Shown: in pieces, positions 23,498 through 31,032 of the stretch
How the letters are laid out: each line of letters begins with the position of its first letter
How positions within the stretch are numbered: position 1 is the first letter of the stretch
From: a virus
Lineage: Duplodnaviria; Caudoviricetes
IMG/VR virus record: IMGVR_UViG_3300020042_002318
Coordinates: 1 to 36,603 of that record
DNA: 36,603 nucleotides
Strand: one strand, 5' to 3'
The notes under the pieces: generated by a model
What the model was told of the DNA's origin: nothing
Database searches by the model: none
Seen by the model: the letters and a program-made list of their open reading frames with translations, nothing else
Position numbers and translations under genes: made by a program

Positions 23498-23525
23498 ATC
23501 ATAAGACACAATCATAAAAAGTCAA
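23498..23525 (-). promoter_or_regulatory. Sigma70 promoter for the replication operon
   Basis: TTGACT-16-TATGAT on minus strand. Confidence 0.6.
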
Positions 23526-23548
23526 TACATTAGACAAAAATAAACTAC

Positions 23549-23577
23549 TTGACAACATTCCAAAAGTGCAGTATAAT
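23549..23577 (+). promoter_or_regulatory. Perfect consensus sigma70 promoter, antisense to early genes
   Basis: TTGACA (23549-54)-17 bp-TATAAT (23572-77). Confidence 0.85.
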
Positions 23578-23677
23578 AACTATATAGTTAAACAACATAG
23601 ACTATCGTTGATTGTTTCTTTATGTTAATTGATAGTAGTCTATATTCACAGTTATGACATAGACTATGTTAACTATA
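23578..23677. repeat. AT-rich nested inverted repeats with ATAGACTAT units
   Basis: AACTATATAGTT palindrome 23578-89; TATAGTTA (23583)/TAACTATA (23670); ACATAG-A-CTATGT 23657-69. Confidence 0.7.
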
Positions 23678-23708
23678 ACGATACCTATATTACCCGCAAG
23701 CGAGTGCA

Positions 23709-23969
23709 TTATCTCCCATCCCAATCAGTCCAGTAGTCTTCAGGGTCTTCAGCATCTAAACCACCATCAATATACCCGTTATCGTCAATCAACGATTCAG
23801 TCATAGCCGTATCTGATTCATTCATTAAATCCTGTCTTACTTGAATCGGTATGTAAGCCTCAATCGTTTTAAGACAATCTGAGCATAGTTCTACATATTG
23901 CCTAGTGATACCATGCTTTATGGTAGCCTCAAAATCAGTTAATGACGCATTGCAACATTGGCATCTCAT
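23709..23969 (-). CDS. Zn-finger protein with acidic tail
   Basis: CQCC...CSDC, GGAG RBS. Confidence 0.7.
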   Translation of the reverse strand: MRCQCCNASLTDFEATIKHGITRQYVELCSDCLKTIEAYIPIQVRQDLMNESDTAMTESLIDDNGYIDGGLDAEDPEDYWTDWDGR

Positions 23970-24317: not shown

Positions 24318-24419
24318 TTAGAGGTATTCCCAAGTATAGCATAATACTACACCAACAAGATGATATACAACATAGGCTAAAATCAGGTATGTCATGCACC
24401 AAAATAGTGCATATTTCAT
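24318..24419 (-). CDS. Small hydrophobic peptide (33 aa); not in ORF track
   Basis: MKYALFWCMTYLILAYVVYHLVGVVLCYTWEYL; ATGA overlap, GAGGAG RBS. Confidence 0.55.
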   Translation of the reverse strand: MKYALFWCMTYLILAYVVYHLVGVVLCYTWEYL

Positions 24420-26155: not shown

Positions 26156-26200
26156 AGTCTATCCCTACCGCTAATGATTCGCAATAGGGATAAACCCTTA
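26156..26200 (-). promoter_or_regulatory. Early promoter with GGATAAACCCT box abutting -35
   Basis: TTGCGA-17-TAGACT on minus strand; box at 26188-26198. Confidence 0.6.
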
Positions 26201-26424: not shown

Positions 26425-26470
26425 AGTATAACGGGTCAATGCTATAAAAAGATACTAGGATAAACCCTAG
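26425..26470 (-). promoter_or_regulatory. Putative first early promoter (TATACT -10, poor -35) with GGATAAACCCT box
   Basis: AGTATA at 26425-30; TAGGATAAACCCTA at 26456-69. Confidence 0.5.
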
Positions 26471-26477
26471 GTTTTCC

Positions 26478-26680
26478 ATTGTATTTAACTATCAAGATAC
26501 TATGTCGATAGTCTAATCCTATTGGTCTATGTTGCACTATAAAGGTGCATCATCGCCCCATACACTCACGCTATCAACCAACACAGGTCAATAGTATTTA
26601 ACTATGATGACAAGTAAGTAAGCACTCACTAACCTAGCACTATATTGGTGCAAGGATGATGTAAGTAAGTGCTAACTAAC
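26478..26680. promoter_or_regulatory. Cluster of palindromic protein-binding-like boxes
   Basis: AT(A/T)G-N7-CTAT at 26478, 26508, 26591; (T/A)GCAC-N7-GTGCA at 26533, 26636; 20-bp GTAAGTAAG..CT.ACTAAC at 26614, 26661. Confidence 0.7.
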
Positions 26681-26961
26681 ATAGGGGGGGAGGGGTAGTC
26701 TATGTTGTGTTATGTTGGCGGAGCCTCCATAGCATACAAAAAAGTAAAATAAGACTATGTTAATTGATAAAAAAGGGACATAGTCAATAATGATGTATGT
26801 TATTGATTAATAAAGAATAATAAAATAGGGACAGAGTCGTCGTAAATGCTCACTCCGTAGGAGGTCTTTGTTGTCCCCAGCGGAGACCTATATTGTCTAG
26901 GCAGACCCGCACAGTCGCTAGACGACTATGTTGTTTAATAACCACACTGTTAAAATATTAC

Positions 26962-26990
26962 TTGACAAAATCGTAAAAGTATGCTAAAAT
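26962..26990 (+). promoter_or_regulatory. Sigma70 promoter for terminase operon
   Basis: TTGACA-17-TAAAAT with extended -10 TG. Confidence 0.8.
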
Positions 26991-27222: not shown

Positions 27223-27705
27223 ATGTTAGAAGTTGAAAAACAATTATCTACCGAAGATGCTCAGTCTTCAGACGAAGGTGGTGTCTTAAAAAAGAAGCGC
27301 CCCAAGCTGGTTAGACGAGAAGTTGTCGATGGTAAACCTGTTCGGGGTCGTCCCACCAAGAAGGCGATTGCAAAGAAAAAGAATCCCGGCATTGTGGGGA
27401 GACCGCCGGGCGACGCAGCACGAATAGCAGAGTTTAAAGCAAGACTGTTGGCAACGCATGGCGACAGCGTAATTGAAAAGATTATTCATACTGCACTACA
27501 AGATGGACACCCTGCACAGGGAGCAATGCTAAAGTTCTGTGGAGAACGATTGTTGCCTCTGTCTAGTTTCGAGGGCAAGACTAGTGGGGGAACACCGCAG
27601 ATTTCAATTAATATCAGCGGACTAACAAATCCAACGATAGAAGCAGAAGAAGTCATTGATAACGATGTTACTGATGTAACCATTAAGGACATCGATGAAT
27701 CTTGA
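27223..27705 (+). CDS. terS: Terminase small subunit
   Basis: Basic RGRP / VGRPPGD N-terminus, helical core, directly upstream of terL. Confidence 0.7.
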   Translation: MLEVEKQLSTEDAQSSDEGGVLKKKRPKLVRREVVDGKPVRGRPTKKAIAKKKNPGIVGRPPGDAARIAEFKARLLATHGDSVIEKIIHTALQDGHPAQGAMLKFCGERLLPLSSFEGKTSGGTPQISINISGLTNPTIEAEEVIDNDVTDVTIKDIDES

Positions 27706-28951
27706 TTTTAAACTGCTGAAGTGGCAGCAAGAAGTTTTTAAAGACCAGACCCGATTCAAAGTAATCGCTGCTGGTCGCCGTTGTGGTAAGAGTAGGTTGT
27801 CTGCAGTAACCCTATTGATTGAAGGGTTAAACTGTCCTGAAGGTTCTAGTGTGATGTATGTTGCACCAACTCTAGGACAAGCTAGAACGATTATGTGGGA
27901 CTTGTTGATGGACTTAGGAAAGCCTGTCATCAAATCCGCACACATCAACAACTTAGAGATTACTTTGGTAAATAACAGAAAAATCCTCATTCGAGGAGCC
28001 GACAACCAAGACTCTTTGCGTGGTGTGTCTTTGTCGTACTTGGTAATGGACGAGGTCGCTTTTATCAAGTCAGAGATTTGGGAACGAGTACTTCGTGCTG
28101 CTTTGTCAGATAAAAAAGGTAGAGCCATGTTTATCTCTACCCCATCTGGGCGAAACCATTTCTATGATTGGTTTCAATTAGGACAGAGTGGAGACGATGT
28201 AGATTGGAAGTCGTGGCACTTTACCACCGCTGACAATGAAACGATTGACCCTAAAGAGATTGAGGCTGCAAAGAGAACACTCAGCAGCTTTGCATTCGGA
28301 CAAGAATATCTGTCTTCCTTCAATAATGCTGGCGCAGGATTATTTAAAGAAGAATGGATTAAGTTTGGCGATGAGCCTGACATTGGTTCGTGGTATATTG
28401 CGGTAGACTTAGCTGGCTTTGAAGATGTCGCTAAAAGCGCTAACGCCACTAAGAAAAGACTAGACCAGTCCGCTATCGCAGTTGTAAAAGTAACCGATGA
28501 TGGTATTTGGTTTGTGGATAAGATTGAAGCTGGTCGCTGGGATATACAGACTACTGCACTCAATATCTTAAAGAATATTAGAGAGTATGAACCTCTAGCA
28601 GTTGGCATCGAGCGAGGGGCGCTAAAGAATGCAGTATTGCCTTACCTTAGTGATTTGATGCGAAAGAACAACTGTTACGCTCATATCTTAGATTTGACGC
28701 ATGGTAATAAGAAAAAAGTAGATAGGATTGTTTGGGCTTTGCAAGGTCGCTTCGAGCATGGACGAGTTATACTCAATGCTGAAGAAGACTTTGAAGAGTT
28801 TGTTGACCAACTACTAATGTTTCCAACCGCACAGGTGCATGATGACTTACCTGATGCGTTAAGCTATATCGACCAACTCGCTGTCACGAGCTACAGTATT
28901 GACAACGACGAAGACGATTGGCAAGCATTAGATGTGGTTAGTGGCTATTAA
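27695..28951 (+). CDS. terL: Terminase large subunit
   Basis: Walker A AGRRCGKS, YVAPT, Walker B LVMDE, ISTP, nuclease AVDLA and HDDLPDA. Confidence 0.96.
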   Translation: MNLDFKLLKWQQEVFKDQTRFKVIAAGRRCGKSRLSAVTLLIEGLNCPEGSSVMYVAPTLGQARTIMWDLLMDLGKPVIKSAHINNLEITLVNNRKILIRGADNQDSLRGVSLSYLVMDEVAFIKSEIWERVLRAALSDKKGRAMFISTPSGRNHFYDWFQLGQSGDDVDWKSWHFTTADNETIDPKEIEAAKRTLSSFAFGQEYLSSFNNAGAGLFKEEWIKFGDEPDIGSWYIAVDLAGFEDVAKSANATKKRLDQSAIAVVKVTDDGIWFVDKIEAGRWDIQTTALNILKNIREYEPLAVGIERGALKNAVLPYLSDLMRKNNCYAHILDLTHGNKKKVDRIVWALQGRFEHGRVILNAEEDFEEFVDQLLMFPTAQVHDDLPDALSYIDQLAVTSYSIDNDEDDWQALDVVSGY

Positions 28952-30971: not shown

Positions 30972-31032
30972 TTGACTTTTTTATAAAGTTGTGGTAAAAT
31001 GCGGTTATAAATGTAAGTGAGTACTTACATAC
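30972..31032 (+). promoter_or_regulatory. Sigma70 promoter for head genes with downstream palindromic operator-like box
   Basis: TTGACT-17-TAAAAT (extended TG); ATGTAAGT-GAGT-ACTTACAT at 31011-30. Confidence 0.75.

What the first reader, a model, noticed from the sequence alone, without database searches (positions are those of the whole stretch)
26456..26695. Candidate new system: terminal array of host transcription-factor boxes
Seen: eight dyad boxes of four unrelated families within ~225 bp, some only 2-10 bp apart. In order: TAGGATAAACCCTA (26456), ATTG-N7-CTAT (26478), ATAG-N7-CTAT (26508), NtrC-like (26533), ATAG-N7-CTAT (26591), 20-mer (26614), NtrC-like (26636), 20-mer (26661), then G7AG4 (26684-95). 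No ORF lies here and no HTH regulator is recognisable in the window. Inference: this end, upstream of the early genes, is probably injected first and recruits several abundant host proteins. Possible roles: (a) a cap shielding the linear end from exonucleases, (b) a binding ratchet that helps pull DNA in for a phage without its own RNAP, (c) a decoy sponge rewiring host regulons as copy number rises, or (d) a physiological-state integrator for early transcription. The density and mix exceed what one promoter seems to need.
Basis: partly seen in the sequence, partly recalled or inferred. Interest (0 to 1): 0.85.

Follow-up and report, generated by a model that had tools for sequence, protein, structure and literature searches.

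The report
Borrowed host-protein cap on phage end
A gene-free 230-base strip of a freshwater phage is tiled with matches to the DNA sites of several bacterial proteins (SlmA, NtrC, likely OxyR), relatives fill the same slot with other host-type sites, and the strip likely coats the DNA end predicted to enter the cell first with host proteins, which would shield it like a borrowed telomere.

Summary
All eight boxes and the G-run are present as described. The window is an uncultured podovirus with no RNA polymerase found; the strip lies between the early genes and the terminase genes. The 20-mers fit the published SlmA rule, one NtrC-type box equals 18/18 bases upstream of E. coli glnA, and phage-derived matrices land upstream of glnA, ahpC/dps and umuD in a stand-in host-order genome. 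In 62 non-redundant relatives the 300 bp left of the G-run hold 136 textbook sites (SlmA, NtrC, OxyR, LexA, DnaA, Fur) against about 4 shuffled and 3 on the right side; the mix is swapped among close relatives and 14 of 62 lack SlmA sites. SlmA-site clusters also sit upstream of terminase genes in other phage lineages (48 of 52). The first box belongs to the early promoter, not the strip. Termini and binding are unproven. Best reading: an identity-agnostic host-protein coat on the terminus-adjacent DNA (about 0.85), most likely an end shield (0.35); rivals are division block, packaging brake, titration, promoter insulation and entry ratchet. Not found in ten literature searches.

The parts
26425..26430 (-). 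Predicted -10 element of the first early promoter (poor -35)
   Evidence: Sequence; conserved in relatives and at a fixed offset from the 26456 box. Inferred, no transcript data.
26456..26469 (.). Dyad box centred about -44 of the early promoter; likely activator site of an unassigned protein; left border of the strip. Second copy at 26185-26199
   Evidence: Offset of 32 nt to a -10 hexamer is the commonest (17 of 47 hexamer hits at 80 sites); 4 of 6 matrix hits intergenic in G632 vs 0.5 control; not enriched in five small genomes
26478..26522 (.). Pair of OxyR-type half-sites 30 bp apart (spacing near that expected for reduced OxyR)
   Evidence: Spacing 30-31 in 12 of 12 pairs in relatives; ATAG elements and the extra helical turn from PMC3953959 passages; best matrix hit in G632 lies between ahpC and dps, but hit number is not above control
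26533..26549 (.). NtrC-type site, right half shared with the conserved element
   Evidence: matrix hits upstream of glnA in G632
26544..26565 (+). Conserved non-palindromic element E, 64-210 nt left of the G-run in relatives; possibly a phage cis-signal such as a terminal-repeat boundary (untested)
   Evidence: 62 of 62 relatives with a permissive pattern fitted to them; no hit in G632
26591..26605 (.). OxyR-type half-site
26614..26633 (.). SlmA-binding-site-type 20-mer; inner 12-mer 26618-26629 fits the published rule with no mismatch
   Evidence: 16 of 20 identical to SBS17 in a primer of PMC4117426 (compared by eye)
26636..26653 (.). NtrC-type site, 18 of 18 bases identical to a site upstream of E. 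coli glnA
   Evidence: L299 707-724, reverse strand; that this E. coli site binds NtrC is recalled
26661..26680 (.). Second SlmA-type 20-mer (one mismatch to the 12-mer rule), 3 bp from the G-run
26680..26749 (+). Conserved G-run, GC-rich core (26717-26728) and A-tract: likely terminase recognition and cut region
   Evidence: Profile of 62 relatives; same shape upstream of other terminase types; cut site inferred, not mapped
26796..26808 (.). IHF-like site on the terminase side
   Evidence: Pattern (recalled consensus) in 41 of 62 relatives at +60..+200 vs 0 of 62 in a coding control
26962..26990 (+). Strong sigma70-type promoter for the packaging genes
27223..27705 (+). Probable small terminase subunit (by position; no family hit)
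   Evidence: viral clusters with AT-hook in 11-20% of members
27695..28951 (+). Terminase large subunit
   Evidence: phrog_2, E 7e-41
30972..31032 (+). Capsid-operon promoter (30972-31000) with a third SlmA-type site (31013-31032) just downstream, in repressor position
   Evidence: 27 of 43 distinct loci carry a SlmA-type site there, 12 of 43 another dyad box

Best explanation
The strip is a row of near-consensus sites that likely loads whichever abundant host DNA-binding proteins are at hand (here SlmA, NtrC and probably OxyR) onto the roughly 250 bp next to the predicted terminase cut, which would coat the DNA end predicted to be packaged last and to enter first and would shield it from host end-sensing nucleases until phage genes are expressed. 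Shown: the sites, their host-type identity by sequence, their confinement to one side of the G-run, their interchangeability among relatives, and their recurrence ahead of several terminase lineages. Inferred: that the G-run region is the cut site, that packaging runs toward the terminase genes (as in lambda, recalled), that the proteins bind in vivo. Untested: that the coat protects. I put the general claim (host proteins are loaded here regardless of their identity) at about 0.85 and the shield function at 0.35.
For: Textbook-pattern sites: 136 in the 300 bp left of the G-run in 62 relatives, about 3.6 shuffled, 3 on the right, 6 in early genes. Density is confined to -300..0 and highest in the last 100 bp; the last box is within 45 bp of the G-run in 57 of 58 loci with a box, and most neighbours are 15-35 bp apart. 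Families swap: 29 of 68 pairs with at least 95% identical small-terminase protein differ in family set; DnaA, Fur, LexA or IclR-like boxes take the slot in other relatives. Host check in G632 (closed 1.71-Mb chromosome, same order as Aquitalea, slmA present): NtrC matrix 4 of 4 hits intergenic, two upstream of glnA; LexA matrix upstream of umuD; OxyR matrix between ahpC and dps; SlmA-type hits avoid the terminus half, 1 of 12. Of 52 viral loci with two or more SlmA-type sites, 48 have a terminase gene in the flank, 47 pointing away; 3 of 27 single-site loci do. Precedent: yeast Rap1 arrays shield ends through length, density, end proximity and affinity, LacI can partly replace Rap1, and the review says it is unclear whether bacteria do this (PMC13685816 section 5.1).
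Against: No terminus was mapped (only contigs). RecBCD evicts tandem protein arrays in vitro (bioRxiv 10.1101/142224 abstract), so a coat may not stop the related AddAB. Five small host-order genomes have no sbcD or recC match and only an AddA-like helicase-nuclease, so the nuclease best matched to the Rap1 precedent is missing there. Library motifs cover only 35% of the 260 nt on average and 3 of 62 loci have none. The host is unknown; G632 is a stand-in, and IclR-like, HexR-like and two other phage motifs had no hit in it. Total SlmA-type hits in G632 are no more than in permuted controls (12 vs 11.8) and the terminus test was one of four thresholds. 28 of the 51 terminase-linked loci belong to one lineage and the terminase queries came from these loci. 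The cultured or annotated relatives of that lineage that I checked have no SlmA-type site (0 of 4).
Confidence: 0.35

Rival explanations
1. SlmA capture to block host division: as phage DNA multiplies, SlmA bound away from the nucleoid would inhibit FtsZ rings and enlarge the cell; the other boxes are secondary.
For: Two SlmA sites on a multicopy plasmid delocalise SlmA and block Z rings in E. coli when SlmA is raised about fourfold (PMC4117426 passages). SlmA is in 145 of 201 genomes of the order searched, is the commonest family in the strips (43 of 62) and forms pure arrays of up to 7 sites in other lineages.
Against: 14 of 62 strips have no SlmA-type site, including L025 and L041, which keep one at the capsid promoter. 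Division block does not need a place within 45 bp of the G-run, nor NtrC, OxyR, Fur, LexA or DnaA boxes.
Confidence: 0.15
2. Packaging brake: the strip is the last DNA before the cut site, and bound host proteins would slow the packaging motor (or a replication fork making the terminal repeat) so that the G-run signal is read and cut accurately.
For: One-sided, G-run-anchored, protein-agnostic and found with several terminase lineages; element E and the G-run could be two boundaries with a variable filling.
Against: No direct evidence; packaging motors are strong enough to strip proteins (recalled); late in infection the genome copies may outnumber the host factors.
Confidence: 0.12
3. Titration sink: the strip soaks up host repressors as copy number rises, releasing the capsid promoter (a replication timer) or rewiring host regulons.
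For: The capsid-operon promoter carries a host-type operator just downstream of its -10 in 39 of 43 distinct loci.
Against: Operator family does not co-vary with strip content in 25 loci with both (SlmA p=0.12, other box p=0.67). Swapping NtrC for Fur, LexA or DnaA among close relatives would rewire different regulons each time. A sink need not abut the G-run.
Confidence: 0.12
4. Promoter function: the boxes integrate host state at, or insulate, the first early promoter (for example against silencing or read-through).
For: The strip ends at the box centred about -44 of the early promoter; the OxyR pair keeps a fixed 30-31 bp spacing next to it.
Against: Most boxes are anchored to the G-run, 100-300 bp from the promoter at variable distance; no sigma54-type promoter for NtrC in 0 of 70 loci; families are exchanged wholesale.
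Confidence: 0.11
5. Entry ratchet or anchor: proteins binding the leading DNA would stop back-sliding until host RNA polymerase reaches the first promoter and pulls the rest.
For: The strip fills exactly the span between the inferred end and the first promoter in a phage with no polymerase gene found; T5 has been proposed to use host DnaA in entry.
Against: Capsid pressure is highest for the first bases out, so help is least needed there (recalled physics); entry order is unmapped.
Confidence: 0.1
6. The boxes bind phage proteins (packaging or replication repeats) or are selectively neutral look-alikes.
For: No binding data; the uncharacterised small ORFs could include DNA binders; two motifs and element E have no hit in G632.
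Against: Exact or near-exact fits to six unrelated textbook motifs, far above shuffles; correct gene contexts in a host-order genome; no TetR or HTH found in the window.
Confidence: 0.05

Closest known systems
Phage T5 injection-stop region with eight DnaA boxes (bioRxiv 10.1101/866236; abstract and passages)
   Same: Non-coding array of host-protein sites in the first-entering part of a phage genome, proposed to act through a host protein.
   Different: One factor in a fixed arrangement about 9 kb from the end, proposed to stop entry. Here many factors, freely swapped, abut the inferred cut site.
Yeast Rap1 telomere arrays (PMC13685816; section 5.1 and passages)
   Same: Dense, high-affinity, end-proximal protein occupancy in which protein identity is partly dispensable; similar length (about 90 nm there, about 250-300 bp here).
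   Different: Eukaryotic, one self-encoded protein on simple repeats, shown to block MRX. Here a phage would borrow several host regulators; protection is untested and sbcD was not found in five small host-order genomes.
Chromosomal SlmA-binding sequences of E. coli (PMC3020112 and PMC4117426; passages)
   Same: 12-mer rule met; terminus-avoiding distribution seen weakly in G632; SlmA helix-turn-helix region conserved (47% identity overall).
   Different: Chromosomal sites are dispersed and outside promoters; here they are clustered in a phage, mixed with other boxes, and one sits in operator position.
Lambda cos (cosQ-cosN-cosB with IHF) and T7 terminal short-repeat arrays (both recalled, not read)
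   Same: Signal-rich non-coding DNA at the packaging origin with a host-protein site on the terminase side.
   Different: Those use terminase-specific or unassigned repeats; no mixed host-regulator strip is part of either as I recall.

Membership tests
SlmA-binding sequence (SBS) | 12-bp palindrome with positions 1, 2, 4, 5 fixed, purine at 3, pyrimidine at 6 | tested here: met
   26618 and 31017 no mismatch, 26665 one mismatch
SlmA-binding sequence (SBS) | Host encodes SlmA | tested here: inconclusive
   145 of 201 genomes of the order of G548 pass the NF007015 cut-off; the actual host is unknown
SlmA-binding sequence (SBS) | Chromosomal copies avoid the terminus region | tested here: inconclusive
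   1 of 12 hits in the terminus half of G632 (p=0.006, one of four thresholds); total not above control
SlmA-binding sequence (SBS) | Binds SlmA and activates FtsZ inhibition | not testable with these tools
   Needs binding and cell assays
NtrC enhancer site | 17-bp dyad found upstream of glnA and nitrogen genes | tested here: met
   18/18 to E. coli glnA upstream DNA; matrix hits upstream of glnA and a TorF porin in G632
NtrC enhancer site | Linked sigma54 promoter | tested here: not met
   0 matches of a recalled -24/-12 pattern in 70 loci
OxyR operator | ATAG elements in four adjacent grooves (oxidised) or two pairs one turn apart (reduced) | tested here: inconclusive
   Pairs 30-31 bp apart fit the reduced form roughly; no four-element site; best G632 hit between ahpC and dps, count not above control. 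Other LysR-family binders are not excluded
T5-type injection-stop signal | Eight DnaA boxes in conserved order in a long terminal repeat | tested here: not met
   No DnaA box in the window strip; 3 of 62 relatives carry 1-4
Telomere-type steric end shield | Dense high-affinity sites next to a DNA end | tested here: inconclusive
   Density and G-run anchoring shown; the end itself not mapped
Telomere-type steric end shield | Protection from end-processing nucleases | not testable with these tools
   Needs nuclease and infection assays
Structured non-coding RNA | Rfam family match | tested here: not met
   One match at 15.7 bits against a cut-off of 100

The most novel reading that the evidence does not exclude
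Many freshwater phages build a protein-free, DNA-encoded telomere: a swappable strip of host regulator sites beside the terminase cut recruits host proteins as an instant cap that hides the incoming end from end-sensing immunity, with strip content evolving to match each host's most abundant high-affinity binders, and SlmA-rich versions also stalling division.
Probability: 0.33. Interest if true: 0.93.

Novelty: categorically new. Interest (0 to 1): 0.8.

Why it matters
If true, phages can counter DNA-end immunity with non-coding sequence alone, before any phage protein is made. It makes directly testable a question a 2026 review leaves open, whether steric end shielding by dense protein arrays exists in bacteria (PMC13685816). 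Whatever the function, the strip is an overlooked layer of phage-host interaction, gives a sequence clue to the hosts of uncultured phages, and offers a portable design for protecting linear DNA in bacteria. I found no description in ten full-text searches of the open library; subscription papers and supplements were not covered. Earlier unreviewed notes of this scan report the same pattern in other phages, so it is not new within the scan.

Tried and rejected
No cultured relative: megablast, terminase and capsid tblastn (all under 60% identity) and blastn of the strip gave nothing useful. Termini: runs were all contigs; depth differences across the strip reflect shared modules of other strains and no end pile-up was seen; contig starts near the G-run (L043, L063, L074) are too few and could be poly-G breaks. 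The terminus question is left open. Searches covered the family and order of G002, whose record label appears wrong (0 of 151 with SlmA, against 145 of 201 in the order of G548); these calls and the five genomes tested say nothing about the host. The 26456 box was rare in the family of G001 (2 of 151) and not enriched in five small genomes, so its protein is unassigned. Searches with element E returned mostly an unrelated coding sequence. The 20-mer in genomes (about 340 stretches) is spread over many phyla, consistent with other TetR-type operators, so it is not by itself a host marker. KOPS reading of the G-run rejected: several relatives have T at the position that must be A (KOPS recalled). 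Sigma54 promoter reading of element E rejected on spacing. Titration timer not supported by co-variation. Dropped rows: 28 of the loci examined had no G-run match, most because the contig starts downstream, about 12 with enough sequence; 70 were kept, 62 after removing near-duplicates and short ones; only 80 of 372 terminase loci and 80 of 123 pattern loci had full flanks.

Full report
Setting. The window is a 99% complete viral record without end repeats. It encodes terminase, portal, major head, tail, lysis, class II-type ribonucleotide reductase, DNA polymerase, primase/helicase and ssDNA-binding genes, and no RNA polymerase was found among 53 ORFs. Early and replication genes run leftward from 26378 and packaging genes rightward from 27223; the finding lies in the 845-bp gap. 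It occurs in freshwater runs (20 of 24 listed rows, 15 studies) and has no cultured relative.

Observation. All elements are present at the stated positions. A fitted motif list gives 8 hits against 0.06 in shuffles (0 of 1000) and at most 2 in 158 other tiles; a motif-blind palindrome count gives only 6 vs 2.6 (26 of 1000), and two other settings were not significant. No Rfam match of weight, no TetR_N, no HTH among 28 small ORFs.

What the boxes are. The 20-mers contain the SlmA 12-mer as defined in PMC3020112 (passages): no mismatch at 26618 and 31017, one at 26665; E. coli SBS17 scores 20.7 bits on a matrix built from phage sites. The 26636 box is identical over 18 bases to DNA upstream of E. 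coli glnA. ATAG-N7-CTAT fits OxyR half-sites; pairs are 30-31 bp apart in 12 of 12 cases, near the reduced-OxyR geometry described in PMC3953959 (passages). To test host-type identity I read G632, a closed 1.71-Mb chromosome from the order of Aquitalea in which 145 of 201 sampled genomes have slmA. Matrices from the phage strips hit two sites upstream of glnA and one upstream of a TorF porin (NtrC, 4 of 4 intergenic, control 0.0), the ahpC/dps gap (OxyR, 2 hits, not above control), umuD (LexA, 1 of 1), intergenic Fur-type (4 of 6) and PhaR-type (7 of 9) sites, and DnaA boxes at the skew-defined origin; IclR-like, HexR-like, two other motifs and element E had no hit. SlmA-type hits avoid the terminus half (1 of 12, p=0.006, one of four thresholds) though their number equals control. 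G632 is a stand-in; the real host is unknown and Burkholderiales is an inference from the motif set and from L253, a 1.2-kb contig with the same mix inside a Betaproteobacteria bin.

Relatives. Searches fetched 148 loci (80 of 372 terminase hits kept); 70 distinct ones had a G-run match, 28 did not, and 62 remained after removing near-duplicates and short contigs. All keep the G-run with a GC-rich core and A-tract to its right and element E 64-210 nt to its left. Between and around them the content varies: SlmA-type in 43, HexR-like (label recalled) in 32, NtrC in 23, OxyR in 18, LexA in 12, IclR-like in 6, DnaA in 3 and Fur in 3 of 62; 51 of 62 have three or more hits and 3 have none. With fixed textbook patterns, some recalled, there are 136 sites left of the G-run, about 3.6 in shuffles, 3 on the right and 6 in early genes. 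The last box lies within 45 bp of the G-run in 57 of 58 loci. 29 of 68 pairs with at least 95% identical small-terminase protein differ in family set, and 14 of 62 strips lack any SlmA-type site. An IHF-like site lies on the terminase side in 41 of 62.

Corrections to the anatomy. The 26456 box is most often 32 nt from a -10 hexamer, recurs at 26185 and marks early promoters, so it bounds the strip rather than belonging to it. The 26533 box shares its right half with element E. A third SlmA-type site sits just downstream of the capsid-operon promoter; 27 of 43 distinct loci have it and 12 have the HexR-like box instead, but operator family does not co-vary with strip content (25 loci, p=0.12 and 0.67). 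No sigma54-type promoter was found in 70 loci.

Beyond this family. The 20-mer pattern occurs in about 600 stretches of 2.9 million viral contigs and about 340 of 32 million genome contigs. Of 79 viral loci with long flanks, 52 have two or more sites; 48 of those have a terminase gene nearby, 47 pointing away, against 3 of 27 single-site loci. The terminases fall into at least five groups without pairwise BLAST hits, though 28 loci are one lineage and the queries came from these loci. 13 of 123 loci mix three or more families. Four annotated relatives of the main lineage have no such site in the stretches read, so the trait is not universal.

Mechanism. Position is conserved while protein identity is not, which points to occupancy rather than regulation. 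By analogy with lambda (recalled), packaging would start right of the G-run and run into the terminase genes, making the strip the last DNA packaged and the first to enter; this is inferred, as only contigs were available. Yeast Rap1 arrays protect ends through length, density, proximity and affinity and tolerate replacement by LacI (PMC13685816 section 5.1), which matches the strip's design, so I favour an end shield (0.35). Against it, RecBCD evicts protein arrays (abstract of 10.1101/142224), and five small host-order genomes show AddA-like genes but no sbcD or recC, so the target would have to be AddAB or accessory end sensors. Division block by SlmA has bench precedent (PMC4117426 passages) but cannot explain strips without SlmA sites (0.15). 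A packaging brake (0.12), titration (0.12), promoter insulation (0.11), entry ratchet (0.10) and phage-protein or neutral readings (0.05) remain.

Known and new. The nearest phage case is the T5 injection-stop region with eight DnaA boxes (10.1101/866236, abstract and passages), which fails as a family match. Ten full-text searches found no description of mixed, swappable host-site strips at phage packaging origins; subscription papers and supplements were not seen. PMC5343134 (passages) confirms glnA and amtB as the NtrC core but gave no HexR consensus. Unreviewed notes of this scan describe similar arrays in other genomes; they are leads, not support. Verdict: real, conserved, widespread and unexplained; interest 0.8.

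Noticed in passing
window 30972-31032: Strong capsid-operon promoter with a SlmA-type site in operator position; 27 of 43 distinct relatives have this site and 12 a different dyad box in the same slot, suggesting late genes are held off by a host repressor.
   Followed up: partly
window 26544-26565: Non-palindromic element E, conserved in all 62 relatives at variable distance from the G-run; could be a terminal-repeat boundary or a phage-protein site.
   Followed up: partly
window 24395-24411: Lone NtrC-type site at the end of an early ORF and start of an intergenic gap.
   Followed up: no
window 26767-26785 and 26820-26838; 26929-26946; 26842-26853: Two copies of a directional box that also appears inside relatives' strips, a HexR-like box upstream of the terminase promoter, and a weak SlmA-type 12-mer, all on the terminase side.
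   Followed up: partly
window 23498-23709: Second non-coding gap in the early arm with promoter-like sites on both strands and ACTATG/CATAGT-type repeats.
   Followed up: no
L253 1-1200: Short contig in a Betaproteobacteria bin with OxyR-, NtrC-, SlmA-, IclR-type boxes in one strip; likely a fragment of another phage lineage.
   Followed up: partly
L300 2280-2550: Exception: SlmA-type cluster lies downstream of a small-terminase gene, between it and a 541-aa ORF.
   Followed up: no
L321, L343, L353, L367, L408: A lineage with a split or two-part terminase region carries mixed strips of SlmA, NtrC and PhaR-type boxes with Fur and IclR-like boxes on the other side.
   Followed up: partly
L425 1100-1300: Annotated podovirus MW202483 has a different repeated box (GTAAAC/GTTTAC type) in the equivalent position upstream of its terminase genes.
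   Followed up: no
L240 (G002): Record labelled Janthinobacterium lividum appears to belong to another order: 0 of 151 genomes of its order have SlmA.
   Followed up: partly
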